From: an uncultured Bacteroidales bacterium
Lineage (GTDB): Bacteria; Bacteroidota; Bacteroidia; Bacteroidales; JAIORY01
Length of the DNA: 64,000 bases
Assembly: GCA_964404485.1 (NCBI GenBank)
Contig: CAYOKJ010000002.1
Coordinates: 70 to 64,069, forward strand
Reading direction: 5' to 3'
This document shows positions 13,955-64,000 of the stretch, piece by piece; within the stretch, counting starts at the first letter, position 1, and each line of letters starts with the position of its first letter. Under the pieces are notes generated by a model. The model was given only the letters and a program-made list of their open reading frames with translations. It had not been told where the DNA came from and did no database searches. The position numbers and the translations under genes are program-made.

Positions 13955-14033
13955 TTTATATAATTTTTGTTTTACAAATATAAAAAAAGCCGGAATTATT
14001 AATCCCGACTTTATATATATTTTTTAAATTGCT

Positions 14034-14660
14034 TTATTCCGCTTTTGGTTCCGTTGCAAATTTATATTCTGAACATACAATAGAATAATATACCAAATAC
14101 CCTTTTTCTGTTTCGGCAATTTCTGCTCTAAGATTTTCTATTTGCTTAAATCCATCTATATGTTCACCCTGGTCAGCATTTTTACCTTTAGAAGTTTTAT
14201 GATCTCCTTCGCCTTCTTTTTCTTGTTTATCTAATCCTTTCCCTTTTTCAGATTCTTCATTATTGGCTAATAGTTCATTTTCCCAATCATTAAGGTAATC
14301 TTCATCTATTCTCAGTTCTTCAACAATACCCTCAACTTTAATTGATTTTCCAACCCATTCTGTATTAAAAGCCGGCATATTTTCTCCAACTGTGATTTTA
14401 ACTCTTCCTTTTGAATTATCATCAATAATAAACATTTTGTCGCCACCATGCATACAAACATGATCAACTATTCCTTTAATATAAACAGCTTTTCCTGTCA
14501 GGCTTTCAGCTGTATCGTCAAATTCAGCAATACTAACAACTATTGGACTAACAGCTGTTATTATGCTTTTATCATTATTGTTTTCAGTTTGTTTTTGTTG
14601 ATTTCCACATGAAAATAAAAAACCTGAAATAATTACTAATATTATTAAATTTCGTGTCAT
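14034..14660 (-). CDS. Hypothetical lipoprotein
   Basis: Lipobox LFSCGN after a signal peptide, and an acidic low-complexity C-terminal half. Confidence 0.5.
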   Translation of the reverse strand: MTRNLIILVIISGFLFSCGNQQKQTENNNDKSIITAVSPIVVSIAEFDDTAESLTGKAVYIKGIVDHVCMHGGDKMFIIDDNSKGRVKITVGENMPAFNTEWVGKSIKVEGIVEELRIDEDYLNDWENELLANNEESEKGKGLDKQEKEGEGDHKTSKGKNADQGEHIDGFKQIENLRAEIAETEKGYLVYYSIVCSEYKFATEPKAE

Positions 14661-14720
14661 AATTTTTTTATTATTATTAATTAATGAATTTGTAAAAGTA
14701 TGTAATTAGTTTAATATTTA

Positions 14721-16232
14721 TTAATTAAAATCACTGCCTATTTTTATTCCATCATATTTTTTTTCTACACCATTTTTGTAATAAATTTTCATGAAAACGC
14801 TACCATCATAATTATATTTTATCCACTCCCCGTTTTTTTTACCCATTACATAAAAGCCTTCTTCTTTTTTATTTCCATTATCCCAATAATAAATATGTAT
14901 TCCGTTTGGATTATCATCAATAAATTTTCCTTCAAAACTTTTTTTACCATTATTATAAAAATGCTTCCATATTCCATTGCGCTTTCCATCAATATATTCA
15001 CCTTCTTCTTTATTATCACCAATTTTATATATCCAAAAACCATTTTTTAATCCTTCAAAATATTCGCCTTTAGTAATAATATTTCCGAGTTGGTTAAATT
15101 CGGTTAAAATTCCATTTGCAATGCCTTCCGAAAAATTTTCTTCTCTTAATAATCTTCCCGATTGATAATACCAGCTCCATTTTTCTATTAATTTTCCATT
15201 GTCATTAAATTTTCCTTCCTGTTCTAATTTTCCACTTTTATGATAATATTTCCATTCTCCTGTTTTAATATCTTTTCTATAATTCCCTTTGGCTTTAATA
15301 TTTCCGTTATCAAAATATTCATTCCAAAAACCATCTCTTTCTCCTTTTTGAGTAATAATTCCCTTTCCTATTATTACACCATTTTTAAAAATATATGAAT
15401 TTTCAACAGTTCCATCTTCCGAATATTCACGCCTTATTCCTTCAGGAACACCATCTTTATAACTTGCAACAATTTTTACTTTTCCGTTTTTATAATAATC
15501 CTTTTTTACATCTAATTTTTTTAGTTTAGCAACATTTTCCTGAATTACTCCATCTGTAAATTTTTCAGCTTTTTTTAGATTTCCATCGTTGCTATATTTT
15601 TTAAAAAAACCTTTTTTATTACCATGCTTATATTTCCCGACTAATTTCAATTTTCCATCAGGATAATAATATTTCCAAATGCCGTGTTTTTTATTTTGTT
15701 GATCGAAGCGATTAATATTTTCTTTGTCAACAATAAATCCTTTTTTATAATAAAATAAAGTAATTATTCTTCCATCAGCTGCATATTCCTTACAAATTCC
15801 TTCTTCTAATCCATCAATAAAATTTACACTTCTTTTTATTTTTTCATCAGAATAAAAATTTTGTGTTAAACCATTTTTTATGTCATCAATAAAATTTTCA
15901 CTAATAATTTCTTCTTCCTGATAGATTTTTCTTCTTCCGTTTTTCTTTCCTTTTTTATAATTTATCTCAAGAATAATATCTCCATTATCGTTATAAAATT
16001 TCCATACAGAATCGAGTTTAAAATTTTTACGATTTCCTTCAGATATTAATATTTCATTCAAATTATATGTTTTCCAATATCCGTCCGGTTTTTCACCACG
16101 CATAAATCCTTCGCTTGATTTTTTTCCATTTTTATGATAAAAAATATTATAACCATCGGGGTTAATATCATTTTGCGATATTGCTGAATTAATGATAAAA
16201 AGAAATACAAGTATTATTTTAAATTTAAACAT
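14721..16232 (-). CDS. MORN-repeat-variant (YwqK-like) repeat protein, secreted
   Basis: About 20 tandem G-x-W-x-x-Y/F-x-x-NG-x-K repeats follow a signal peptide. Confidence 0.7.
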   Translation of the reverse strand: MFKFKIILVFLFIINSAISQNDINPDGYNIFYHKNGKKSSEGFMRGEKPDGYWKTYNLNEILISEGNRKNFKLDSVWKFYNDNGDIILEINYKKGKKNGRRKIYQEEEIISENFIDDIKNGLTQNFYSDEKIKRSVNFIDGLEEGICKEYAADGRIITLFYYKKGFIVDKENINRFDQQNKKHGIWKYYYPDGKLKLVGKYKHGNKKGFFKKYSNDGNLKKAEKFTDGVIQENVAKLKKLDVKKDYYKNGKVKIVASYKDGVPEGIRREYSEDGTVENSYIFKNGVIIGKGIITQKGERDGFWNEYFDNGNIKAKGNYRKDIKTGEWKYYHKSGKLEQEGKFNDNGKLIEKWSWYYQSGRLLREENFSEGIANGILTEFNQLGNIITKGEYFEGLKNGFWIYKIGDNKEEGEYIDGKRNGIWKHFYNNGKKSFEGKFIDDNPNGIHIYYWDNGNKKEEGFYVMGKKNGEWIKYNYDGSVFMKIYYKNGVEKKYDGIKIGSDFN

Positions 16233-16236
16233 ATAA

Positions 16237-16764
16237 TTATTTTACTGTTTTTCCTTTAACAACTCTTTGATTAATTTCTTGTCGGTAAATTTCATCTTTT
16301 TTTATCCATAATCTTGTGTTTTCAGCTTTTGAATCTACATTGTAAATTAATGTATCGTAAACTATTCCATAATAACTACCAATATTTTTATTTAATAATA
16401 TTTTATAAAAGTTATCTTGATTTTTTTTATGAAAAGTCACAGTATTATCATTTTCGAAAGAAATAAAAAGTTTGTCATTAGTAAAACTATCGCATGTCCC
16501 CGGAGTATTTTTAGCAATTATTATTTGGTCAATATAATTTCCATTTTCAAACACTATTTCACCTCTTGCTATTTTAGCTTCATTAATAGGCATAACTCTT
16601 TGTAAAATAACAGTATTTGAAATATAAAACTGAACTTTTTTAATATCTAATTTTTTATTTTCTATGTTTTTTCTAAGATTTTGTGTAAAATAAATTCTCT
16701 TAGTACAAGATAATGTAAACATCATTAATGCTATCAGACCGATTAAAATTATTTTATTTTTCAT
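16237..16764 (-). CDS. Hypothetical lipoprotein
   Basis: Signal peptide with a TLSC lipobox. It lies 4 nt downstream of the MORN gene on the same strand. Confidence 0.5.
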   Translation of the reverse strand: MKNKIILIGLIALMMFTLSCTKRIYFTQNLRKNIENKKLDIKKVQFYISNTVILQRVMPINEAKIARGEIVFENGNYIDQIIIAKNTPGTCDSFTNDKLFISFENDNTVTFHKKNQDNFYKILLNKNIGSYYGIVYDTLIYNVDSKAENTRLWIKKDEIYRQEINQRVVKGKTVK

Positions 16765-16806
16765 GATTAAAATTTAATAATTAGCTACTTTCTAAAAATT
16801 ATATTT

Positions 16807-17745
16807 TTATTTTTTATTATTAATAACTTTAGATAATTGAAGCATTTTTTCAATAGATTTTTTTGCTTTTTCAATTTTTATATTATCTAATTTTATTTCC
16901 GGTTTTTCATTAACAAGACAATCATATACTTTTTGTAAAGTATTTTTTTTCATATATTCACAATCATTACAAGAACAGTTTTCATCAGACGGAACAATTA
17001 AAAATTCTTTTTCCGGAGAATCTTTTTTCATTTGATGAAGTAATCCTGTTTCACTTGCAATAATTATTTTTTTAGAGTCAGATGATTTTGCATATTCAAG
17101 CATTTGCGCTGTTGATCCAATAAAATCTGCGAGTTCTAAAACAGCTGCATTACATTCGGGATGAGCTATTAATTTTGCTTTGGGATTTTTAACTTTAATT
17201 TTTATTACAGCTTCATTATTTAATTTATCATGAACTTCACAAACACCATCCCATAAAACCATATTTCTTCCGGTTAAATTATTAATATATCCACCTAAAT
17301 TTTTATCAGGAGCAAAAATAATTTTTTCATCTTTTGGAAAACTTTCTACAATTTTTACAGCATTTCCTGATGTACAAACTACATCTGAAATAGTTTTAAT
17401 ATCAGCTGTACAATTAATATATGAAATAACTATATGATCGGGATATTTTTCTTTAAACTTTTTAAATTCATTTAGAGGGCATGAATCAGCAAGTGAACAT
17501 CCTGCATCCATATCCGGAATAATTACTTTAGTTTTCGGATTAATTATTTTAGCTGTTTCAGCCATAAAATGAACTCCACAAAAAACTATTATCTTTGCTT
17601 CTATTTCAGCAGCTTTTTTAGCTAAAGCTAAACTATCTCCTACATAATCAGCAATATCTTGTATTTCTGGTATTTGATAAAAATGCGCTAATAATACCGC
17701 ATTTTTTTCTACTTTTAATTTTTTAATTTTTTCTGTTAAATTCAT
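16807..17745 (-). CDS. nadA: Quinolinate synthase
   Basis: LLAHFYQ..IQDIADYVGDSLALA, HFMAETAKI, conserved Cys residues, and the typical length of about 310 aa. Confidence 0.9.
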   Translation of the reverse strand: MNLTEKIKKLKVEKNAVLLAHFYQIPEIQDIADYVGDSLALAKKAAEIEAKIIVFCGVHFMAETAKIINPKTKVIIPDMDAGCSLADSCPLNEFKKFKEKYPDHIVISYINCTADIKTISDVVCTSGNAVKIVESFPKDEKIIFAPDKNLGGYINNLTGRNMVLWDGVCEVHDKLNNEAVIKIKVKNPKAKLIAHPECNAAVLELADFIGSTAQMLEYAKSSDSKKIIIASETGLLHQMKKDSPEKEFLIVPSDENCSCNDCEYMKKNTLQKVYDCLVNEKPEIKLDNIKIEKAKKSIEKMLQLSKVINNKK

Positions 17746-18235
17746 TAATTGTTTTTATAATATTTAAGCTATATATTTCAGCACTAAAATTAATATTTTT
17801 ATTTTCTTTAATTTTAAACAGTTTTAATAATATATATAATATATTTATTAATTAAAATTTTAAATGTATTATTATTAGACTTGTTAATAAACTAAATTTT
17901 TAATGATTATTGTAATTAAAATGTATCAAAATTATTATTAAATATTTAATAATTACATTATTAAAATAAATATATTTTTCACCAAATAGCTAATAATTTT
18001 GTTAATAATAGTTTAATAAATTTTGATAATAATTTTAATCATTAAGCTTTATAAACAATTTGTTAATTATTTAAATATTTATTATAAAATTATAACAATT
18101 TTTAAAGGAATAAACATTATTTTGTTTATAACTAATAAAAAATTGATTTTAAGATAATAGCGTAAATATAAACTTTTTTTGATTTAAATAAAATCTTAAT
18201 TTTAAAGTAATTAATAAAGATAATTAATTTTTAAG

Positions 18236-55135: not shown

Positions 55136-57532
55136 ATGGTAAAGAAACTTATAATCATAAACCAAGATAGTGAAGCGGATACATGCAGAAAAGAAGTAAC
55201 ACCAAAGCTTTATCATGCTAATTGGAGTGATGAACAAATATTAGAACAAAGAACTTTTACCGATGGAAAAATAGTTGTACTTGGAAGAAAAGCGAGACGA
55301 AAAAAGGGAAAAAGAGCTGATTATATTCTTAGATACAAAACAGATTATCCGATTGCTGTAATTGAAGCAAAAAAGAAATATACCAAAGCAGCCGATGGAC
55401 TACAACAAGCTAAAGATTATGCTGAAATTTTGGGATTAAACTTTGCTTATGCATCAAATGGTGTTGAAATTATTGAATATGATTTTACAACAGGATTAGA
55501 AAGTAAAATAATTAACTTCCCTACACCCGAAGAACTCTGGAAAAGAGAATCAATAAAAGAAAATATTGATGAATCAATACAAGAAACTTTATTAAAACCA
55601 TTTCATTCTTTTGCAAGTAAAAAGCCAAGATATTATCAAACAATTGCAATTAACAGAGCAGTTAAAAAGATTTTAGAAGGCAAAAAAAGATTGTTATTAA
55701 CAATGGCAACAGGGACAGGAAAAACAACTGTTTCATTTCAAATTATTTATAAATTATGGAATAATCGATGGAATCAAAGAAATGACCATCGCAGACCTAA
55801 AATATTATTTATTGCAGACCGAAGCATATTAGTTAATGACCCTCATTCAAAGGATTTTGCAATATTTGGCGATGCAAGATGTTTAGTCCCTGACGAAGGG
55901 ATTGTAACAAGTCGTGAGATATATTTTTCAACTTATCAATCACTTGCTGAATATGAAAGTAAAGAAGGAAATTTTAGGAAATTTCCAAGAGACTTTTTCG
56001 ATATGATTATAATTGATGAGTGTCATAGAGGAAGTGCATCTGATGAAAGCAATTGGAGGAAAATTTTAGACTATTTTACAGAATCAGTTCACTTGGGATT
56101 AACAGCAACGCCACTTAGAGAAGATAATAGAGACACCTACGAATATTTCGGAAATCCGATTTACACATACAGTTTAAAACAAGGAATTGATGACGGATTT
56201 CTTGCTCCTTACATTGTTCACCGAATTGTAACCGAAGCTGATGCAACCGGATGGCGACCAGAAAAAGGACAAGTTGATGCACGAGGAAATGAAATTGCAG
56301 ACGGAATTTACACAACAACTGATTTTGAAAGAACATTATCCTTACTTCCGCGAACAAAAGCGGTTGCCAAACACTTGGCAGATTACATGACTAAAAATGG
56401 CAGATACAGCAAAACAATTGTTTTTTGCGTTGATCAGGAACATGCCGACCATATGCGAAGGGAGTTAAACAACTTAAATTCAGATATTACAAAAGATTAT
56501 CCAAATTACATTGTTCGCATTGTTTCAGAGGAAGGAGACGTAGGAAAAGGTCATTTGAGTGATTTTATGGATATTGACGAGGAATTTCCTGTAATTGTTA
56601 CAACTTCAAAGCTTTTGAGTACTGGAGTATATATTCCAACTTGTGCAAATATAGTTTTATTCAGAAACATAAATTCAATGACTGAATTTAAACAGATTAT
56701 TGGTCGTGGCACAAGAGTAAGAGAAGATAAAGGAAAACTATTTTTTACAATTTTAGATTATACAGGTAGTGCATCAAGAAATTTTGTTGACCCTGATTTT
56801 GATGGTGAACCACCATTGATTACAAATGAAGAAATTGACGAACAAGGACAAACCATTGAAGGTACTTTTGAGGAAGAAATAAACGAAACCGAAGAAATTG
56901 ACAATTGGGATGAACCTACAGAAACAGATTTTGAGAATATTCCAGATAATGAAGAAAACGACAGACCTCGTAAATATTATGTAGAAGAAGGAATCCTGTC
57001 AATTGTTGCTGAAACAGTTCAGATTTTAGATAGTCAGGGGAAACTACAGACAATCCAATATAGAAAATACACTAAAGACAAAATCTCAAATCTTTACCCA
57101 TCAGCAAATGAGTTTAAAAAAGCGTGGTTAGATTTAAACATTAGAAGGAACATAATTTCACAACTTGAAGAACAAGGCATTTTAATTGAAGATTTGAAAA
57201 AAATCACAAAACTTGTTGATGTTGACGCCTTTGATTTATTGCGTTATGTGGCTTTCGATTTGAAACCTTTAACCAGAAAACAACGAGCTAATTTACTTTT
57301 AAAAAATAAAGCTGATTTATTTTCTGAATATTCCGAAGGTGCAAGAGAAATTATCGAAATCATTATCTCAAAATATGTTGATTTTGGCATAGACCAGTTG
57401 AAACCTGAAATTATTCAGGTAGAACCAATTTCAAGCAAGGGAAATATTTTGGAAATTGCCGACAGATTTGGAGGGATTGACAAATTCAAAACACTAATAA
57501 ACGAATTACAAAAACAATTATACGCAGCGTAA
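55136..57532 (+). CDS. hsdR: Type I restriction enzyme R subunit (EcoEI/EcoAI-like, with an EcoEI_R_C-type C-terminal domain)
   Basis: N-terminal PD-(D/E)xK motif (RADYIL...VIEAKK), SF2 motor motifs MATGTGKT and IIDECHRGSA, TATP, QIIGRGTR, and C-terminal LLRYVAFD... Confidence 0.9.
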   Translation: MVKKLIIINQDSEADTCRKEVTPKLYHANWSDEQILEQRTFTDGKIVVLGRKARRKKGKRADYILRYKTDYPIAVIEAKKKYTKAADGLQQAKDYAEILGLNFAYASNGVEIIEYDFTTGLESKIINFPTPEELWKRESIKENIDESIQETLLKPFHSFASKKPRYYQTIAINRAVKKILEGKKRLLLTMATGTGKTTVSFQIIYKLWNNRWNQRNDHRRPKILFIADRSILVNDPHSKDFAIFGDARCLVPDEGIVTSREIYFSTYQSLAEYESKEGNFRKFPRDFFDMIIIDECHRGSASDESNWRKILDYFTESVHLGLTATPLREDNRDTYEYFGNPIYTYSLKQGIDDGFLAPYIVHRIVTEADATGWRPEKGQVDARGNEIADGIYTTTDFERTLSLLPRTKAVAKHLADYMTKNGRYSKTIVFCVDQEHADHMRRELNNLNSDITKDYPNYIVRIVSEEGDVGKGHLSDFMDIDEEFPVIVTTSKLLSTGVYIPTCANIVLFRNINSMTEFKQIIGRGTRVREDKGKLFFTILDYTGSASRNFVDPDFDGEPPLITNEEIDEQGQTIEGTFEEEINETEEIDNWDEPTETDFENIPDNEENDRPRKYYVEEGILSIVAETVQILDSQGKLQTIQYRKYTKDKISNLYPSANEFKKAWLDLNIRRNIISQLEEQGILIEDLKKITKLVDVDAFDLLRYVAFDLKPLTRKQRANLLLKNKADLFSEYSEGAREIIEIIISKYVDFGIDQLKPEIIQVEPISSKGNILEIADRFGGIDKFKTLINELQKQLYAA

Positions 57533-57535
57533 TAA

Positions 57536-59071
57536 ATGGCAAAAAAAGAGACTAAAACAACAGCACAAAGATTATCGGGGATTGTAAAATCGTGCCGGCA
57601 AATAATGAGGAAAGACAAAGGTTTGAATGGTGATGCTGACCGTTTGCCAATTCTTACATGGATAATGTTTTTGAAGTTTTTAGATGACAACGAAAAAATT
57701 CATGAATCGGAAGCATTATTAAAAAGCAAAACTTTTAAACCAACATTAAAAAATCCTTATCGCTGGAGAGATTGGGCAAAAGACACAAACCTAACCGGAG
57801 ATGATTTATTGCCATTCATAAATAATGAAAAAGCCACCTTCCCTGATGGTACAGAGGGAACAGGTTTATTCTACTATTTAAGAAGTTTGCAAAGTGAAAG
57901 CGGAAAAGAAAGAGCCGATGTAATTTCAACCGTTTTCAAAGGAATTAACAATCGAATGATAAATGGTTATTTGCTTCGTGATGTTGTAAATAAAATAGAT
58001 GAAATACAATTTACATCAAACGAAGAGATTTATACACTATCGCATTTGTACGAAAGTATTTTAAAAGAAATGCGTGATGCTTCGGGTGATGCAGGAGAAT
58101 TTTATACACCAAGACCAGTAGTTCAATTCATGGTAAATATGATAAATCCTCAATTGGGCGAAACTGTACTTGACCCCGCATCAGGCACAGGTGGCTTTCT
58201 TGTGGCTGCGTTTGAGCATTTGAAAAAGCAAGCCAAAACTTTAGAACAATTCAAAGTTTTACAAAAACAATCGGTAATTGGTGGAGAAGCAAAGCCGTTA
58301 CCATATTTATTGGTTCAAATGAACCTGCTATTACACGGCTTAGAATATCCACAAATTGACCCTTTAAACTCATTGCGTTTTAAGTTGCAGGAGATTGGCG
58401 ATAGTGAGCGTGTAGATACAATTATTACAAATCCACCATTTGGGGGTGAAGAAGAAAAAGGAATCCTAAATAATTTCCCGAAAGGCAAACAAACCACCGA
58501 AACAGCATTTCTATTTCTTCAACTTATCATGCGAAAGTTAAAACGTAAAAAGGCAGAACAAAAAGGCGGAAGGGCTGCCGTTGTAGTTCCCAATGGAACT
58601 CTGTTTGCTGATGGCGTGGCAAACCGAATAAAAAAGCAATTAGTAGAAGATTTCAATTTACACACAATAGTCCGTTTGGGCGATGGGGTTTTTGCACCAT
58701 ATACCGATATTCCTTCAAATCTATTGTTTTTTGAACATGGAAAGCCAACAAAAGAAATTTGGTATTATGAAATTTCTGTTCCTGAAGATAAAAAGAAATA
58801 CAGTAAAACAAAGCCAATACAAAATGAAGAATTTACTGAGATAAGCCAATGGTGGAACGATAGAAAAGAAACAGAATGGGCTTGGAAAGTAAACATAAAT
58901 GATATTGTAAAAGAGAACGGAAATGGCTCTGTATCTGTAAACCTTGACATAAAAAACCCAAATCGTAAAAGTGAATTTGAATATCAGGAACCATCAAAAC
59001 TGATTTCTTCGATAGTTGAAAGGGAAAAGGAAATTTTAAAACTAATGGAAGAAATACAATCAGGAATATGA
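57536..59071 (+). CDS. hsdM: Type I restriction-modification N6-adenine DNA methyltransferase M subunit
   Basis: Motif I DPASGTGGFL, motif IV NPPFGG, and an HsdM_N-type N-terminus. It starts 4 nt after the hsdR stop. Confidence 0.9.
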   Translation: MAKKETKTTAQRLSGIVKSCRQIMRKDKGLNGDADRLPILTWIMFLKFLDDNEKIHESEALLKSKTFKPTLKNPYRWRDWAKDTNLTGDDLLPFINNEKATFPDGTEGTGLFYYLRSLQSESGKERADVISTVFKGINNRMINGYLLRDVVNKIDEIQFTSNEEIYTLSHLYESILKEMRDASGDAGEFYTPRPVVQFMVNMINPQLGETVLDPASGTGGFLVAAFEHLKKQAKTLEQFKVLQKQSVIGGEAKPLPYLLVQMNLLLHGLEYPQIDPLNSLRFKLQEIGDSERVDTIITNPPFGGEEEKGILNNFPKGKQTTETAFLFLQLIMRKLKRKKAEQKGGRAAVVVPNGTLFADGVANRIKKQLVEDFNLHTIVRLGDGVFAPYTDIPSNLLFFEHGKPTKEIWYYEISVPEDKKKYSKTKPIQNEEFTEISQWWNDRKETEWAWKVNINDIVKENGNGSVSVNLDIKNPNRKSEFEYQEPSKLISSIVEREKEILKLMEEIQSGI

Positions 59072-60066
59072 GTAAATCAAAAATAAACGAAATAGCTATT
59101 TACGAAACCGAAGATGGTCAGGTAAAAGTTGGTGTCCTGTTTGAGCAAGACAATCTTTGGCTTACCCAGAAACTAATGGCAGAACTTTTTGAATGTAGTG
59201 TTGATAATATTTCTTTACACTTAAAAAACATATTTAAAGACAATGAATTGGATAAGAAATCAGTTGTCGAGGATTACTCGGTAACTGCATCCGATGGCAA
59301 ATCATACAAAACAAAGCACTACTCTCTTGAAGCAATTATTGCAGTTGGATACCGTATAAACACTACAAGAGGCACACAGTTTAGAACATGGGCAACAGAC
59401 AAATTAAAAAGTTACATCTTTAAAGGTTTTGCCATAGACAAAGACCGGTTTATAAAAGGAAGCAGATTTGATGCACGGTTTTTTGATGACTTACTAGAAG
59501 AGATAAGAGAAATTCGGGCAAGCGAAAGAATGGTATATCAGAAAATAACTGATATTTACGTAACTTCGGTTGATTACTCTACCGACACATTAGAAACCGA
59601 CCGCTTTTTTGCAACGGTACAAAACAAACTTCATTTTGCCATAACAGGAAATACTGCTGCCGAAATAATATCTGAAAGAGCCAATAGCATTAAAGAGAAT
59701 ATGGGCTTGACCACTTGGCGAAAAGCACCAAAAGGCAAAATTTACAAAAGTGATGTTACCATTGCCAAAAACTATTTGCAGAAAGCAGAAATAAAAAAAC
59801 TGAACCACATTGTAGATATGTATCTTGATTATGCTGAGTTTCAGGCAAGCAAAGCCAAACCAATGTACATGAAAGATTGGGCAGTGAAATTAGATGCCTT
59901 TTTACAATTTAACGAAGAAGAAATACTTAATGATAAAGGAAAAATATCAAAAGTAGTTGCAGCAGAACTTGCTGTAAGAGAATACGAAGCGTTTAGAATA
60001 AAGCAAGACCAAAATTATATTTCCGACTTTGACAAGGCTGTAAAACAATTAAAAAAGAAGTCTTGA
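59068..60066 (+). CDS. RhuM-family protein embedded in the type I R-M operon
   Basis: IAIYETEDGQVKVGVLFEQDNLWLTQKLMAELFECSVDNISLHLKNIF...AVGYRINTTRGTQFRTWAT matches the conserved RhuM N-terminal region. ATGA overlap with hsdM. Confidence 0.7.
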   Translation: MSKSKINEIAIYETEDGQVKVGVLFEQDNLWLTQKLMAELFECSVDNISLHLKNIFKDNELDKKSVVEDYSVTASDGKSYKTKHYSLEAIIAVGYRINTTRGTQFRTWATDKLKSYIFKGFAIDKDRFIKGSRFDARFFDDLLEEIREIRASERMVYQKITDIYVTSVDYSTDTLETDRFFATVQNKLHFAITGNTAAEIISERANSIKENMGLTTWRKAPKGKIYKSDVTIAKNYLQKAEIKKLNHIVDMYLDYAEFQASKAKPMYMKDWAVKLDAFLQFNEEEILNDKGKISKVVAAELAVREYEAFRIKQDQNYISDFDKAVKQLKKKS

Positions 60067-61217
60067 TGAAGAAGGATTGGAATAAATATAAGATTGGTGA
60101 TATTTTATTTCGAGTTAAAGACTCCTTTAATCTTAGTGAGCTTGAAGAATATAAAAGAGTTACAGTAAGAGGAAAGGGTGTTGGTGTTTCCATGCGAGAT
60201 ACAGCAAAAGGTTTAAATATTGGTACAAAAAGACAATTCAGAGTAAGGTCAAATCAATTTTTGATTTCGAAGATTGATGCCATGAATGGTGCTTATGGAA
60301 TAATACCAGATGAATGTGACAATGCTATTATTACAGGAAATTTTTGGACTTATAATTTTGATGGAAATGTATTATTAAAAGAATACTTACATTATTTATC
60401 AATTGCTTGTTTGTTTACGGATTTCAGTAAAAGAGCAAGTTCAGGAACTACAAACAGAAAATATCTTGATGAAGGTAAATTTTACAATCTTGAAATTGAG
60501 TTACCCTCACTTCCCGAACAGAAACGAATTGTAAAAATAATCAAGTCGGTTGAGGCGAAAAGGCAAAACATTAATAAACTGAATAAGGAGCAGGAAAGAG
60601 AGATAAAAAACATATTGTACAGCACTTACATTGATATAATCAAAGATGCTGAATATAAACCAATGGTAGAGGTTGCACCAATAATCAGACGACCTGTTAA
60701 TATTAGTGCAGAAGAAAAATATCCTGAATTGGGAATTAGATGTTTTGGAAATGGAACTTTTCATAAACCTGCTTTAAGCGGAATAGAAGTTGGCACAAAA
60801 AAACTTTTTCAAATAAAAACAGGCGATTTGGTTTTTAGTAATGTGTTTGCATGGGAAGGAGGAATTGCCGTAGCAAAAGAGGAAGATAACGACCGTTACG
60901 GTTCACACCGTTTTATTTCATGCAATTGCAATTTAGAACAGGTAAAACCATTATTTCTAAGCTTTCATTTTCTTGCACCAAAAGGCTTAGAAGAAATTAA
61001 CAACTGTTCACCAGGTGGAGCAGGTAGAAACAAAACATTAGGGCTTAAAAAACTTGAAGCATTAAAAGTTCCTGTTCCAAAAATTGATAAACAAAGAAAA
61101 TTTGAAAACTTATTGAATCAATTCAATCAACTTAAAGAACAAAGAGAAGAAAGAGAAAAGGAATTGACAAAACTAATTCCTAGTTTGTTGGACAAAGCAT
61201 TTAAAGGAGAATTGTAA
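60066..61217 (+). CDS. hsdS: Type I restriction-modification specificity subunit
   Basis: Two target-recognition domains are separated by the conserved helical spacer LPSLPEQKRIVKII...; the C-terminus carries the matching VPVPKIDKQRKFENLL... The ATG overlaps the rhuM TGA by 1 nt. Confidence 0.85.
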   Translation: MKKDWNKYKIGDILFRVKDSFNLSELEEYKRVTVRGKGVGVSMRDTAKGLNIGTKRQFRVRSNQFLISKIDAMNGAYGIIPDECDNAIITGNFWTYNFDGNVLLKEYLHYLSIACLFTDFSKRASSGTTNRKYLDEGKFYNLEIELPSLPEQKRIVKIIKSVEAKRQNINKLNKEQEREIKNILYSTYIDIIKDAEYKPMVEVAPIIRRPVNISAEEKYPELGIRCFGNGTFHKPALSGIEVGTKKLFQIKTGDLVFSNVFAWEGGIAVAKEEDNDRYGSHRFISCNCNLEQVKPLFLSFHFLAPKGLEEINNCSPGGAGRNKTLGLKKLEALKVPVPKIDKQRKFENLLNQFNQLKEQREEREKELTKLIPSLLDKAFKGEL

Positions 61218-61218
61218 A

Positions 61219-63354
61219 ATGGAAGAAAAAGGATATATAACAGCATTAGGAATAGGTTATTCTGGAGCTCTACCAAAAATAAAAAAGAATGATGAAAAAA
61301 TACAACCTGTTTTTGAGGCTTTAACAAATTCACTTGAGGCTATTAAATCGTTGAAAAATGACAATGGAAAAATTACAATCAAGCTATTTTTAGACAAGAC
61401 ACTGCATTCTGATGAAAATAAGGATTATTCTTTCCAAAAAATAGTTGTTGAAGATAATGGTATTGGTTTTAATGAAGAAGAGTTTGCCAGACTGGTTGAC
61501 CTTTATGATGAAGGTAAAGGGTATTTTAATAAAGGTTCTGGACGAATACAGTTCTTGCATTTTTTCAACAAAACAGAAATTACAAGTGTTTATAAAAGTG
61601 AGAAATCAGCTACAGGGTTTAAACAGCGAAATTTCTCATTATCAAAATCTAAAGCTTTTTTACAAAACAATGCTATTATTCGTGTTGATGATATAAAAGA
61701 TATTTCTGCAACAGAACCTTTCACAATTCTTACTTTTAATACTCCATTGCATGATGAGGATACTTTGTATTATAAATCATTGACGGTTGATGATATTAAG
61801 AATCATATTAAAGATCATTACTTAGCATATTTTTGCGAAAATAGAGATACTTTACCAAAAATTGTTATCCAATCATATATTAACGACATTAGTAGTGGTG
61901 AAACAGAAATTGTTGCTAATGATATCCCAAGAGTAGATCAACAAAAAGAAATTGATGTTTACTATAGTAAAATAACTGGAAATAGAATTACAAAAACAGA
62001 TAACAAAGAAGTTTTAAACCTTAAAGCATTCAAGATACCAAAAGATAATTTAGATAAAAATGGATTAAAACTTATTAGTAAGGGTGAGATAGCGATAGAC
62101 TTTACAATAGACTCACTATTAGATACTGATCATATTGAAAATAATCGTTATTTGTTTTTATTATCAGGAGATTATATAAACAATAAGGATAGTGATACAA
62201 GAGGAGAATTACAGATTCCAAAAAAAGCTGATTTTAAGAAAAATGAACTTTCTCTATTTGACGAAGAAGAAATATTGATGGATGATATTGAAGAAAAAGC
62301 AAATGAAGAGATTGAGAAACTATATGAGGAAATTAAATGTAATGCAGAAAAGAAAAAGAAAAATATTGAAGAGCTAAGAAAAATGTTCTTATTAAACGAT
62401 GAAACTATAAAATCTATAAGAATTGGTATTAACGATAGTGATGATAAAATATTAGAGAAAGTATATCAGGCAGATGCAAAAATAATAGCTAAAGGAGATG
62501 CGGAAATAAAACAGCAAATTAAACTGCTTGAAGAATTAAATCCCGCCGAAAAAGACTATGAGGACATATTCAAAACTCAAGTTGATGAATTAGTAAAAGC
62601 TATTCCTTTGCAAAACAGAACAGCTTTAACTCACTACGTTGCAAGACGTAAACTTGTACTGGAATTATTTGATAAAATTTTAGAAAACCAATTAGAAATT
62701 CAAAAAACAAGTTCTCGTAATATAGATGAGAAATTATTACATAATTTAATATTCCAGCAAAGTTCTGATAATACTGAAGATAGTGATTTATGGTTAATTA
62801 ATGAAGATTTTATTTATTTTAAAGGAGTTTCTGAAAGCAAATTGAAAGATGTTAAAATTGATAATGAATTTATCTTTAAAAAAGAATTTGAAAAAGAAGA
62901 AACCGAGTATTTATTATCATTAGGCGAAAATAGAAAAATTAAAAAACCTGACATTTTACTTTTTCCTGATGAGTCTAAATGTATAATAATAGAGTTGAAA
63001 AACCCTGATGTACCTATCAGGACGCATTTAGGACAAATTGATTTTTATGCAGGTCTTATTCGAAATCTTACAAAAGACACTTTTAACCTTGATACATTTT
63101 ATGGTTATTTAATTGGAGAATCTATTGACCCAAGAGATGTAAGGTTAACAGACCAACGTTTTATTCAATCCTACCATTTAGATTATATGTTTCGATCCAG
63201 CACGCCTGTTGCAGGTGACATTTTTCCTAATACGAAAAAAAGCGATGGTTCAATTTATACAGAAGTCATTAAATACTCAACCTTATTAGAACGTTCTTTA
63301 ATGCGAAACAAAATATTTATAGATAAAATAACTAAACCTATAAAATTACATTGA
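61219..63354 (+). CDS. GHKL (Bergerat-fold) ATPase fused to a C-terminal PD-(D/E)xK nuclease-like domain, coupled to hsdS
   Basis: N-box FE33ALTN37SLEA, G1 box D79NGIGF, G2-like GSGRIQF, and a central K/E-rich coiled region. The C-terminal KKPD578ILLFPDESKCIIIE592LK594NP has a D...ExK arrangement. The start lies 1 nt after the hsdS stop. Confidence 0.55.
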   Translation: MEEKGYITALGIGYSGALPKIKKNDEKIQPVFEALTNSLEAIKSLKNDNGKITIKLFLDKTLHSDENKDYSFQKIVVEDNGIGFNEEEFARLVDLYDEGKGYFNKGSGRIQFLHFFNKTEITSVYKSEKSATGFKQRNFSLSKSKAFLQNNAIIRVDDIKDISATEPFTILTFNTPLHDEDTLYYKSLTVDDIKNHIKDHYLAYFCENRDTLPKIVIQSYINDISSGETEIVANDIPRVDQQKEIDVYYSKITGNRITKTDNKEVLNLKAFKIPKDNLDKNGLKLISKGEIAIDFTIDSLLDTDHIENNRYLFLLSGDYINNKDSDTRGELQIPKKADFKKNELSLFDEEEILMDDIEEKANEEIEKLYEEIKCNAEKKKKNIEELRKMFLLNDETIKSIRIGINDSDDKILEKVYQADAKIIAKGDAEIKQQIKLLEELNPAEKDYEDIFKTQVDELVKAIPLQNRTALTHYVARRKLVLELFDKILENQLEIQKTSSRNIDEKLLHNLIFQQSSDNTEDSDLWLINEDFIYFKGVSESKLKDVKIDNEFIFKKEFEKEETEYLLSLGENRKIKKPDILLFPDESKCIIIELKNPDVPIRTHLGQIDFYAGLIRNLTKDTFNLDTFYGYLIGESIDPRDVRLTDQRFIQSYHLDYMFRSSTPVAGDIFPNTKKSDGSIYTEVIKYSTLLERSLMRNKIFIDKITKPIKLH

Positions 63355-63361
63355 ATAAATC

Positions 63362-64000
63362 ATGCTTGGCAAAACCCACCAATTAGTAGCAAACCTTTCT
63401 TTGGCATGTCTTAGTCAAAAAGAGAGGCATATTATGTATCCAAGATGGGGAGGCATTGAATCTGGTGCAACTTTATCGGATGAATTTAGGATTATGTGGG
63501 AAATTGAGGAAGTAGGTTCAGACAAAAAACAACTTGTTCATCGGTGTTATGTGGATAGCAAGGATACTAAAAACCACGGATGTATCACCAGATCATTAAA
63601 CCATGCTGAGGGCTGTATTGGTTTTATAGAAACCTACTCAAAAGAAGATAGTTCTGAAGAGGAATTCTTAGAGAATCTGGGGATGCTTATGGGAATTACA
63701 AGTCACCATATTGCAGATTTATGTACACCGGTTCATGTTGGCCATAGAATAAATTTTAAGAATTTGGGGTACTCTTCACTTTCCAGGTTCCACAATAAAG
63801 TAGAAAGAGATATTTTTCGTTTTCAAAATAAATCTTCTATAAAGTTCTCAAAACCAAAACTTGTTGAATTATCGGATAAGTATTTTTGGACTATTGCAAA
63901 TGATACATATAACAACATCTTTCTAAAGCTTGAAGCTATTTATAAAACAAAGGCTGAACCATCTATGATTGATATTTCCTCTCAGGTAGTTAGTAATGCG
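63362..64000 (+). CDS. S1/P1-nuclease / zinc-phospholipase-C superfamily protein (3' end outside the window; not in the supplied track)
   Basis: My own translation from the ATG at 63362 is open for 213 codons to the window end. Candidate metal ligands are H6 (GKTHQLV), H60, H115-x3-D119-x5-H125 (SHHIADLCTPVH) and H144-x3-E148 (FHNKVE). This reproduces the ligand spacing I recall for P1 nuclease and B. cereus PLC. Confidence 0.55.
   Translation, partial: MLGKTHQLVANLSLACLSQKERHIMYPRWGGIESGATLSDEFRIMWEIEEVGSDKKQLVHRCYVDSKDTKNHGCITRSLNHAEGCIGFIETYSKEDSSEEEFLENLGMLMGITSHHIADLCTPVHVGHRINFKNLGYSSLSRFHNKVERDIFRFQNKSSIKFSKPKLVELSDKYFWTIANDTYNNIFLKLEAIYKTKAEPSMIDISSQVVSNA

What the first reader, a model, noticed from the sequence alone, without database searches (positions are those of the whole stretch)
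61219..63354. GHKL ATPase fused to a PD-(D/E)xK (possibly Shedu/DUF4263-like) nuclease domain
The N-terminus carries Bergerat-fold motifs: ExxxN in FEALTNSLEA, DNGIGF and GSGRIQF. This is the ATPase class of MutL, MORC and Hsp90, which earlier comparative-genomics work linked to R-M loci, as I recall it. After a long charged and coiled central region, the C-terminus shows KKPD578ILLF...IIIE592LK594NP, a textbook D...ExK nuclease core. The preceding LHNLIF...LWLINEDF segment and the 'PD-hydrophobic ... hydrophobic-E-x-K-x-P' layout remind me of the Shedu nuclease domain. I do not recognise an ATP-gated nuclease of this exact architecture as a named system.
Basis: partly seen in the sequence, partly recalled or inferred. 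Interest (0 to 1): 0.75.

Follow-up and report, generated by a model that had tools for sequence, protein, structure and literature searches.

The report
GHKL ATPase–nuclease defence gene in R-M operon
The gene encodes one protein that joins a MutL/Hsp90-type ATPase clamp to a restriction-enzyme-like DNA-cutting domain and sits as the fifth gene of a type I restriction-modification operon; the design is real and conserved, but it was described in 2008 (paraMORC3) and a related design was shown to block phages in 2025, so this is an uncharacterised member of a known kind.

Summary
The catalytic residues are conserved from 98% down to about 22% identity.

**N-terminal half.** It is a confident GHKL ATPase plus transducer module. 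Foldseek against the PDB gave E 1e-9 to 1e-6 to Hsp90, MutL, SMCHD1, Topo VI-B and MORC4.

**C-terminal 214 aa.** This region carries a PD..ExK..QxxxY motif. Its profile matches are to the HsdR N-terminal nuclease (Pfam HSDR_N in 25 of 33 members), never to Shedu DUF4263. Foldseek found no significant fold match for this domain, so the nuclease call rests on profiles and motifs.

**Context.** The gene follows hsdS by 1 nt in a packed hsdR-hsdM-rhuM-hsdS-GHKL operon. In 16 of 80 genomes with a homologue it sits after hsdM-hsdS, usually hsdM-hsdS-GHKL-hsdR. Elsewhere it stands alone among varied defence genes. A distant homologue occupies the same slot in a Vibrio cholerae trmE island.

**Prior art.** The architecture is paraMORC3 (Iyer 2008). 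GHKL-nuclease fusions were filed as Shedu type I-D (2023), and VcSduA was validated as anti-phage (2025).

**Verdict.** A real, probably autonomous ATP-gated defence nuclease, and a new member of a known kind. Interest is moderate.

The parts
61219..63354 (+). Whole ORF, 711 aa: GHKL ATPase - transducer - helical arm - PD-(D/E)xK nuclease
   Evidence: ORF; more than 751 homologues of about 710 aa; 2037 cluster representatives; model with pLDDT 80.
61219..61833 (+). GHKL (Bergerat-fold) ATPase domain, aa 1-205. Motif I E33xxxN37, motif II D79xG81xG83, motif III G106xG108R109.
   Evidence: Pfam HATPase_c_3 E 3e-4 (aa 33-161) and HATPase_c E 6e-4. Motif residues invariant in the family and largely kept in distant relatives. 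Foldseek hits to Hsp90, MutL, GyrB and MORC4.
61834..62223 (+). Beta-rich middle (transducer / S5-like) domain, aa about 206-335. Invariant S287-K288-G289-E290 and D324/D326/R328/G329.
   Evidence: pLDDT above 90. Foldseek alignments of 330-527 columns to MutL LN40, PMS2, Topo VI-B and SMCHD1 extend past the roughly 200-aa GHKL fold. The domain boundary is my inference.
62224..62709 (+). Charged helical arm, aa 336-497, with long helices 408-438 and 447-497
   Evidence: DSSP on the model. No family match. A coiled-coil or lever role is inferred.
62710..63351 (+). C-terminal PD-(D/E)xK nuclease domain, aa 498-711. Candidate motif I E504/H508, D578, E592xK594, Q606xxxY610.
   Evidence: Pfam HSDR_N E 1.4e-3 here and in 25 of 33 members. 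hhalign to HsdR N-termini. Most of these residues kept across the superfamily. Predicted alpha-beta-beta-beta-alpha-beta order. No significant Foldseek support.
55136..57532 (+). hsdR, type I restriction subunit of the EcoEI/EcoAI-like family
   Evidence: ResIII 2.6e-37, EcoEI_R_C 4.7e-24, PADLOC REase_I 2.7e-221.
57536..59071 (+). hsdM, type I methyltransferase
   Evidence: N6_Mtase 1.1e-64; PADLOC MTase_I 2.7e-181.
59068..60066 (+). rhuM-family gene inserted between hsdM and hsdS, with 4-nt overlaps on both sides
   Evidence: Virulence_RhuM 2.4e-101; PADLOC candidate PDC-S05 1.4e-139.
60063..61217 (+). hsdS specificity subunit; its stop is 1 nt before the GHKL gene start
   Evidence: Methylase_S 1.9e-19; PADLOC Specificity_I 1.5e-97.
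63362..64000 (+). Sixth gene of the packed cluster, 7 nt after the GHKL stop. It runs off the window and is 241 aa on longer contigs.
   Evidence: Translation. Only a weak Zn_dep_PLPC match, E 0.021. 241 aa in L087. Not found next to homologues in 80 loci.

Best explanation
The gene encodes a single-polypeptide, ATP-controlled DNA endonuclease of the paraMORC3 / GHKL-nuclease ('Shedu type I-D-like') kind. It acts as an autonomous anti-phage or anti-plasmid defence module and is carried as a passenger inside a type I R-M operon, as rhuM is.

**Proposed mechanism, inferred from the MutL, Topo VI-B, MORC and Hsp90 paradigms and from VcSduA genetics:**
1. The protein is a homodimer.
2. ATP binding (E33/N37, D79xGxG, G106xG108) drives dimerisation of the N-terminal GHKL domains.
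3. The transducer domains and long helical arms then close into a clamp around DNA.
4. Clamp closure positions or unlocks the C-terminal HsdR/RecB-like nuclease (D578, E592xK594, Q606xxxY610), which cuts the captured DNA.
5. Hydrolysis resets the clamp.

**Shown here:** the domain composition, conservation of both active sites, the operon position and the defence-island neighbourhoods.

**Inferred:** dimerisation, DNA clamping, ATP gating, the target, and how self is distinguished from non-self.
For: - **GHKL plus transducer fold.** Foldseek E 1e-9 to 1e-6 to Hsp90, MutL LN40, SMCHD1, Topo VI-B and MORC4, over 330-527 columns, on a model with pLDDT 80.
- **Both catalytic sets are conserved.** They are invariant in the family and largely kept in relatives at 22-28% identity that align over the full length (hhalign probability 98.9-99.2%).
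- **Nuclease profile.** HSDR_N matches 25 of 33 members and distant members.
- **Autonomy.** About 58 of 79 analysable genome loci have no type I genes within four called genes of it. Their neighbours are varied defence genes: type II/III/IIG methyltransferases, GajA/AriA/PtuA-like AAA_15/21 ATPases, AbiTii, HindIII, OLD-TOPRIM and RhuM. No partner is conserved.
- **Horizontal spread.** Besides Bacteroidota, it occurs in Campylobacterota, Spirochaetota, Lentisphaerota, Acidobacteriota, Cloacimonadota and others.
- **Local setting.** The window locus is a small island of type I R-M, RhuM, an rve integrase and an AbiEii pair between trkH and cysS.
- **Literature.** paraMORC3 is GHKL+S5+RE-fold (E-D-ExK) in proteobacteria and bacteroidetes and is often standalone (PMC2292703). 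VcSduA alone protects E. coli and V. cholerae, and E27A and K557A abolish defence (PMC12137116).
Against: - Foldseek gave no significant match for the C-terminal domain in the PDB or BFVD, and profile searches of PDB sequences were empty. Nuclease activity therefore rests on sub-threshold or near-threshold Pfam hits and on motifs.
- PADLOC 2.0 and NCBIfam do not recognise the protein.
- I could not obtain the VcSduA sequence or any DUF4263 sequence. Homology to the validated protein is therefore not shown.
- The tight, recurrent placement directly after hsdS (gaps of -14 to +18 nt in 16 loci, and again in Vibrio) is also what a functional partnership with the R-M enzyme would look like.
Confidence: 0.62

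Rival explanations
1. It is a functional accessory of the type I enzyme. In this view it is an alternative or additional restriction subunit that docks on the HsdM2S1 methyltransferase core, or on HsdR, and supplies a second HsdR-like nuclease driven by a GHKL clamp instead of, or alongside, the SF2 motor. Iyer et al. proposed something similar for paraMORCs, namely looping DNA between recognition and cleavage sites.
For: - In 16 of 79 loci the gene lies directly after hsdS, co-directional, with gaps of -14 to +18 nt. In seven of them hsdR follows within -4 to +13 nt.
- The same slot is used by a relative at about 23% identity in Salinivibrio and V. cholerae.
- The associated HsdR proteins all belong to one family, EcoEI_R_C / EcoAI-like.
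- The nuclease domain's only profile matches are to the HsdR N-terminal nuclease.
Against: - About three quarters of the loci have no type I gene within four called genes of it.
- Type I operons commonly host unrelated passenger defence genes; rhuM sits in this very operon.
- VcSduA works without any R-M partner (PMC12137116).
- No co-variation or interaction evidence was obtained.
Confidence: 0.15
2. It is a PrrC-like back-up sentinel. It would be kept latent while the type I enzyme is functional and released when a phage anti-restriction protein (an Ocr/ArdA-type DNA mimic or another inhibitor) attacks the R-M complex. The Hsp90-like clamp would act as a sensor of protein rather than of DNA.
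For: - It is embedded in R-M operons across phyla.
- The precedent from established knowledge is PrrC/EcoprrI.
- Gu et al. speculate that GHKL N-terminal domains of Shedu-type proteins may sense proteins (10.1101/2023.08.10.552793).
- The GHKL module matches Hsp90 as well as it matches MutL.
Against: - No direct evidence was obtained.
- Most family members lack an adjacent R-M system.
- The best-scoring structural relatives besides Hsp90 are DNA enzymes: MutL, Topo VI-B, SMCHD1 and MORC.
Confidence: 0.08
3. The C-terminal domain is not an active nuclease. On this reading the protein is a GHKL ATPase with a degenerate RE-fold, or with an unrelated DNA- or protein-binding domain, and it acts in DNA repair, chromosome organisation or regulation.
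For: - Foldseek shows no significant RE-fold match.
- Pfam HSDR_N hits are mostly below the gathering score.
- The segment aa 513-539 is strongly conserved but modelled with pLDDT below 50.
Against: - D578, E592, K594 and Y610 are kept in all relatives tested down to 22% identity, and Q606 in all but one.
- The predicted secondary-structure order fits the RE core.
- The distribution is patchy, horizontally transferred and tied to defence islands. It is not a conserved housekeeping locus.
Confidence: 0.07

Closest known systems
paraMORC3 family (Iyer, Abhiman & Aravind 2008, PMC2292703)
   Same: It has an N-terminal GHKL domain with intact ATP motifs, an S5-type transducer and a C-terminal RE-fold domain with E-D-ExK that resembles RecB-type nucleases. 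It is prevalent in Proteobacteria and Bacteroidetes, is often standalone and is otherwise linked to R-M. All of these features are seen here.
   Different: No paraMORC3 reference sequence was available, so sequence-level membership is untested. The passages of that paper that I read describe links to SF2 helicases, methylases and Vsr. They do not mention the hsdS-X-hsdR slot of type I operons found here.
VcSduA / Shedu type I-D with a GHKL N-terminal domain (PMC12137116; 10.1101/2023.08.10.552793)
   Same: It is one polypeptide with a GHKL ATPase, an Hsp90/MORC-like middle domain and a C-terminal PD-(D/E)xK nuclease. VcSduA needs both the motif I glutamate and the ExK lysine for defence, and the equivalent residues here are E33 and K594. 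A Vibrionaceae relative of the window protein has E27 and K556, close to VcSduA's E27 and K557. That agreement is circumstantial.
   Different: Shedu is defined by DUF4263. PF14082, the PADLOC models and NCBIfam gave no hit for this protein or for 48 relatives. The nearest profile is HSDR_N. VcSduA lies in VSP-II next to GrwAB, not in a type I operon. The VcSduA sequence was not obtainable, so homology is unproven.
HsdR N-terminal nuclease domain of type I restriction enzymes (Pfam HSDR_N; the RecB-like QxxxY motif of EcoR124I is recalled from my own knowledge)
   Same: The D..ExK..QxxxY core aligns: KKPDILLF..IIIELK..GQIDFYAG against KRADYILR..AVIEAKK..QQAKDYAE of the window's own HsdR.
   Different: There is no SF2 translocase. 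The motor is a GHKL clamp. hhalign support is modest, with P about 1e-3.
MutL / MORC / Topo VI-B / Hsp90 GHKL-transducer modules
   Same: These are the best structural matches for aa 1 to about 450. They supply the paradigm of ATP-driven N-terminal dimerisation.
   Different: MutL's endonuclease is an unrelated C-terminal metal-binding domain. MORC, Hsp90 and Topo VI-B carry no fused PD-(D/E)xK nuclease. Sequence identity is only 8-14%.

Membership tests
GHKL ATPase superfamily | Bergerat-fold motifs I (ExxxN), II (DxGxG) and III (G-rich lid) | tested here: met
   E33/N37, D79/G81/G83 and G106/G108 are kept in the family and in all relatives tested at 22-28% identity. HATPase_c and HATPase_c_3 match at E 3e-4 to 6e-4 here and above threshold in the Thioclava relative.
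GHKL ATPase superfamily | Bergerat fold recovered by structure comparison | tested here: met
   Foldseek against the PDB gave probability 1.00 and E 1e-9 to 1e-6 to Hsp90, MutL, SMCHD1, Topo VI-B, GyrB/ParE and MORC4.
paraMORC3 | GHKL followed by an S5-type transducer domain | tested here: met
   Alignments of 330-527 columns to MutL LN40, PMS2 and Topo VI-B cover the beta-rich domain at aa 206-335, which has pLDDT above 90. The S5 assignment itself is inferred from those targets.
paraMORC3 | Conserved C-terminal RE-fold domain with an E-D-ExK motif, RecB-like | tested here: inconclusive
   The motif is present and conserved. HSDR_N profile hits occur in 25 of 33 members. Foldseek found no significant RE-fold match.
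paraMORC3 | Sequence homology to reference paraMORC3 proteins | not testable with these tools
Shedu (SduA) | DUF4263 (PF14082) nuclease domain | tested here: not met
   There was no PF14082 hit in 33 family members, 10 distant representatives or 6 proteobacterial relatives, at E<=1 (E<=0.1 for the 10 distant representatives). PADLOC and NCBIfam gave no hit. No Shedu chain appeared in the PDB profile or fold searches.
Shedu (SduA) | PD-(D/E)xK catalytic residues required for defence | not tested
   The residues are present (D578, E592, K594). Their requirement needs mutagenesis.
Shedu (SduA) | Oligomerisation through the nuclease domain, with the N-terminal domain restraining activity | not testable with these tools
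   No multimer prediction was available.
Type I restriction subunit HsdR | SF2 (ResIII/DEAD) translocase fused to the nuclease | tested here: not met
   There is no helicase domain in Pfam or in the Foldseek results. A genuine HsdR lies at 55136-57532.
MutL | C-terminal dimerisation/endonuclease domain of the MutL type | tested here: not met
   Only the N-terminal 40-kDa part matches MutL. No MutL_C or DNA_mis_repair hit appeared in Pfam.

The most novel reading that the evidence does not exclude
The GHKL-nuclease may be mechanistically coupled to the type I (EcoEI/EcoAI-like) enzyme rather than being a mere passenger. It could be a second restriction subunit that docks on the HsdM2S1 core. 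It could instead be a PrrC-like sentinel that fires when phage anti-restriction proteins disable the R-M complex. The hsdS-GHKL junction recurs in Bacteroidota, other phyla and a Vibrio cholerae trmE island with proteins only about 23% identical, so the coupling would be ancient and general.
Probability: 0.15. Interest if true: 0.7.

Novelty: new member of a known kind. Interest (0 to 1): 0.4.

Why it matters
This is a large protein family. The profile search returned 2037 cluster representatives at E<=1e-3, and thousands more relatives exist in Proteobacteria. It is annotated only as 'ATP-binding protein' or 'hypothetical' and is missed by PADLOC 2.0, NCBIfam and Pfam gathering thresholds.

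Recognising it as a paraMORC3-type ATP-gated nuclease would improve defence-system annotation, especially in Bacteroidota. The recurrent slot between hsdS and hsdR offers a concrete test of whether GHKL clamps cooperate with type I enzymes. That idea was proposed in 2008 and, as far as I found, has not been tested. The basic architecture and its anti-phage role are already published, so the advance is incremental.

Tried and rejected
- **PDB sequence searches.** The single protein, the full profile and the C-terminal profile gave only chance hits: JAR1, HMG-CoA reductase and KinB.
- **Foldseek on the isolated C-terminal model.** Neither the PDB nor BFVD gave anything significant. The best PDB hit was UbiD at E 0.05, and SgrAI appeared only at rank 50 with E 1.
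- **PADLOC and NCBIfam.** No hit for the protein, its C-terminal domain or six distant relatives, apart from a Cas4 trace at E 0.025.
- **Obtaining VcSduA or any DUF4263 sequence for a direct profile comparison.** The supplementary table with sequences is truncated. The Shedu preprint has no supplements held. The paraMORC additional file is not held. Two homologue searches seeded with Vibrionaceae and Acinetobacter relatives did not bring VcSduA into the top 120. The apparent E27 match in the Acinetobacter protein reflects a start codon annotated 17 codons short, since the homologues are 675 aa.
- **Promoter and terminator scan.** Counts were at the shuffle level. The consensus is not suited to Bacteroidota.
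- **tRNA scan for an integration site.** None found.
- **Is the downstream gene a conserved partner?** It is absent next to homologues in 80 loci.
- **Rejected identities.** Histidine kinase: no HisKA or DHp domain, and a MutL-like transducer is present. A true MORC: this rests on paraMORC-style features only. A MutL orthologue: no MutL C-terminal domain.
Full report
**1. Observation**

The window has an ATG-to-stop ORF at exactly 61219-63354 on the + strand, 711 aa.
- FEALTNSLEA, with E33 and N37
- EDNGIGF, with D79, G81 and G83
- NKGSGRIQF, with G106, G108 and R109
- LHNLIF...LWLINEDF, aa 507-531
- KKPD578ILLF...IIIE592LK594NP

The word-index search returned more than 751 homologues. Nearly all are 700-740 aa and are named 'ATP-binding protein' or 'hypothetical'. 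In an alignment of 33 of them, 51-68% identical to the query, these residues are invariant: N37, D79, G81, G83, G106, G108, R109, E561, D578, E592, K594, Q606 and Y610.

An exhaustive profile search of 1.84 billion cluster representatives gave 2037 hits at E<=1e-3 and 254 at E<=1e-30. The 150 listed are full-length proteins of about 680-880 aa or fragments of them, and the weaker hits were not inspected. The identical protein occurs on 19 metagenome contigs.

**2. N-terminal half**

Pfam gives HATPase_c_3 (E 3e-4, aa 33-161) and HATPase_c (E 6e-4), both just below the gathering score. Sixteen of 33 members hit each model.

An AlphaFold2 model built on the alignment has mean pLDDT 80, and above 90 over aa 110-330. 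Foldseek against the PDB returns the following at probability 1.00 and E 1e-9 to 1e-6:
- Hsp90
- MutL LN40
- SMCHD1
- PMS1, PMS2 and MLH1
- Topo VI-B
- ParE and GyrB
- MORC4

The alignments span 330-527 columns. The similarity therefore covers the GHKL fold and also the beta-rich domain that follows (aa about 206-335). This is the GHKL-plus-transducer engine of MutL, MORC and the type II topoisomerases.

After it come long helices (aa 336-497, one of 50 residues). These are the 'charged, coiled' region of the finding.

**3. C-terminal domain**

Pfam's only relevant match is HSDR_N, the N-terminal nuclease of type I R subunits. It scores E 1.4e-3 here, hits 25 of 33 members (best 2.9e-6), and appears in distant relatives. 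One distant relative (P0233) reaches the gathering score. Several database homologues also carry a precomputed PF04313 hit. Sporadic single hits go to HSDR_N_2, VRR_NUC, NucS_C, PDDEXK_3 and Cas4, which are all PD-(D/E)xK families.

hhalign of the domain alignment against 13 HsdR N-termini aligns KKPDILLF..IIIELK..GQIDFYAG with KRADYILR..AVIEAKK..QQAKDYAE. This puts D, ExK and QxxxY in register, at P 1.6e-3. With a more diverse query P is 8e-4, against 0.008-0.09 for three control alignments. The predicted order of helices and strands fits the RE core.

The structural test failed. A separate model of aa 498-711 (pLDDT 76) had no Foldseek match with E below 0.03 in the PDB or BFVD. No Shedu, HsdR, NucS or RecB structure appeared, and SgrAI came only at rank 50 with E 1. 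Profile searches of PDB sequences were also empty.

I therefore regard the nuclease assignment as well supported by profiles and by the conservation pattern, but not confirmed by fold comparison. No test supports the specific suggestion of a Shedu/DUF4263 domain. PF14082 did not hit any of 49 superfamily proteins at the E-value limits used (1; 0.1), and PADLOC and NCBIfam were silent.

**4. Wider superfamily**

tblastn against plasmids found full-length relatives at 22-28% identity in Alpha-, Beta- and Gammaproteobacteria. hhalign of the family profile against two of them gives probability 98.9-99.2% over about 570-595 columns, from motif I to the last helix. Each of these relatives heads its own large family of 672-683-aa 'ATP-binding proteins'. 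D578, E592, K594, Y610 and the GHKL motif residues E33, N37, D79, G81, G83, G106 and G108 are kept in all of them. Q606 is D in one and R109 is K in two.

**5. Context**

The window gene is the fifth of six tightly packed co-directional genes:

| Gene | Coordinates | Junction to next gene |
|---|---|---|
| hsdR | 55136-57532 | 3-nt gap |
| hsdM | 57536-59071 | 4-nt overlap |
| rhuM | 59068-60066 | 4-nt overlap |
| hsdS | 60063-61217 | 1-nt gap |
| GHKL-nuclease | 61219-63354 | 7-nt gap |
| unknown gene | 63362 onwards | runs off the window |

On longer contigs the cluster lies between trkA-trkH and cysS. It is followed by an rve integrase and a DUF6088-AbiEii pair, so it is a small defence island.

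I examined 80 genome loci with a homologue:
- About 58 are from Bacteroidota. The rest are from Campylobacterota, Spirochaetota, Lentisphaerota, Acidobacteriota, Cloacimonadota and others.
- In 16 the gene comes directly after hsdS with hsdM upstream, all co-directional. The hsdS-to-GHKL gaps are -14 to +18 nt. In nine of them hsdR lies downstream, in seven as the very next gene at -4 to +13 nt.
- In the remaining loci no neighbour family recurs in more than four loci. The neighbours include type II/III/IIG methyltransferases, DEAD/ResIII helicases, GajA/AriA/PtuA-like ATPases, AbiTii, HindIII, OLD-TOPRIM, YhcG and RhuM.

The 672-aa gammaproteobacterial relative shows a parallel arrangement. 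It sits in hsdR-AAA_15-hsdM-hsdS-GHKL-rhuM-mobI in trmE-integrated islands of Vibrio cholerae, the MGIVchHai6 family. It is also present in Salinivibrio, where rhuM and mobI do not follow (PMC4958241).

**6. What is known**

- Iyer, Abhiman and Aravind (2008, PMC2292703) defined paraMORC3 as GHKL+S5 plus a C-terminal RE-fold domain with E-D-ExK. They found it related to RecB nucleases, prevalent in Proteobacteria and Bacteroidetes, and often standalone.
- Gu et al. (10.1101/2023.08.10.552793) list GHKL plus an Hsp90/MORC-like middle domain among the N-terminal domains of 'type 1D' Shedu.
- Adams et al. (PMC12137116) showed that VcSduA, a GHKL-nuclease protein from V. cholerae VSP-II(WASA), alone protects against T1-like phages and vibriophage X29. 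They showed that E27A and K557A abolish defence, and they equate such proteins with paraMORC3.

I could not retrieve the VcSduA sequence. The only link is circumstantial: the Vibrionaceae relative has E27 and K556.

**7. Mechanism**

The best-supported reading is an autonomous ATP-gated nuclease, with confidence about 0.6. ATP-driven dimerisation of the GHKL domains would close a clamp made of the transducers and helical arms on DNA, and would license the C-terminal HsdR/RecB-like nuclease.

Shown here: the domains, the conserved active sites, the operon position and the defence-island context.

Inferred: dimerisation, clamping, gating and target choice.

The main rival (about 0.15) is functional coupling to the type I enzyme. 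It is suggested by the recurrent hsdS-GHKL junction across phyla and by the HsdR-like nuclease. A PrrC-like sentinel role (about 0.08) and an inactive nuclease (about 0.07) remain possible.

**8. Verdict**

This is a real feature that was correctly read at the domain level. It is a new and so far unannotated member of a known kind, paraMORC3 / GHKL-nuclease defence proteins. It fails the DUF4263 test for Shedu membership but most likely works as VcSduA does. Interest is moderate at 0.4. The most novel surviving reading is mechanistic coupling with type I R-M.

Noticed in passing
window 63362-64000 (runs off the end); L087 12144-12869: A 241-aa gene starts 7 nt after the GHKL stop and is probably co-transcribed. 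Its only match is a weak Zn_dep_PLPC hit (E 0.021), with an HxxxD...PVH-like pattern. It is not found beside GHKL homologues in 80 other loci.
   Followed up: partly
window 59068-60066: A RhuM-family gene (PADLOC candidate PDC-S05) is wedged between hsdM and hsdS with 4-nt overlaps on both sides. RhuM also lies within three called genes of the GHKL gene in four other loci (L017, L020, L044, L078), and immediately after it in the Vibrio cholerae island.
   Followed up: partly
L090 3119-13806 (V. cholerae, GCA_037154475.1); L084 1-6977 (Salinivibrio): A relative of the window protein at about 23% identity (672 aa, E27, E554xK556) occupies the same post-hsdS slot in hsdR-AAA_15-hsdM-hsdS-GHKL-rhuM-mobI. 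This lies inside a trmE-integrated MGIVchHai6-type mobilisable island. Proteins 86-96% identical occur in Vibrio, Aeromonas, Klebsiella, E. coli, Morganella and Proteus.
   Followed up: partly
L087 13313-16240 (just beyond the window's 3' end): The island continues with an rve-family integrase/transposase and a DUF6088-AbiEii pair (an AbiE toxin-antitoxin type) before cysS. The whole trkH-to-cysS interval therefore looks like an inserted defence island.
   Followed up: no
window 62755-62835 (aa 513-539 of the protein): The segment SSDNTEDSDLWLINEDFIYFKG is among the most conserved in the family (S522, L524, W525 and E529 invariant). Both AlphaFold models give it pLDDT below 50. It may fold only in the oligomer or on DNA.
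   Followed up: no
L086 2184-9772 (Paraburkholderia plasmid); L082 5908-9050 (Thioclava plasmid): Distant GHKL-nuclease relatives on plasmids sit beside other defence-type genes. In Paraburkholderia these are an AAA ATPase, a DUF4365 protein and an LA2681-family HEPN protein. In Thioclava it is an Abi family protein.
   Followed up: no
window 14001-18000: G+C falls to 0.23-0.27, against about 0.31 elsewhere, with strongly negative GC skew (-0.45). Minus-strand ORFs of 208, 503 and 312 aa lie here. It may be another acquired segment.
   Followed up: no
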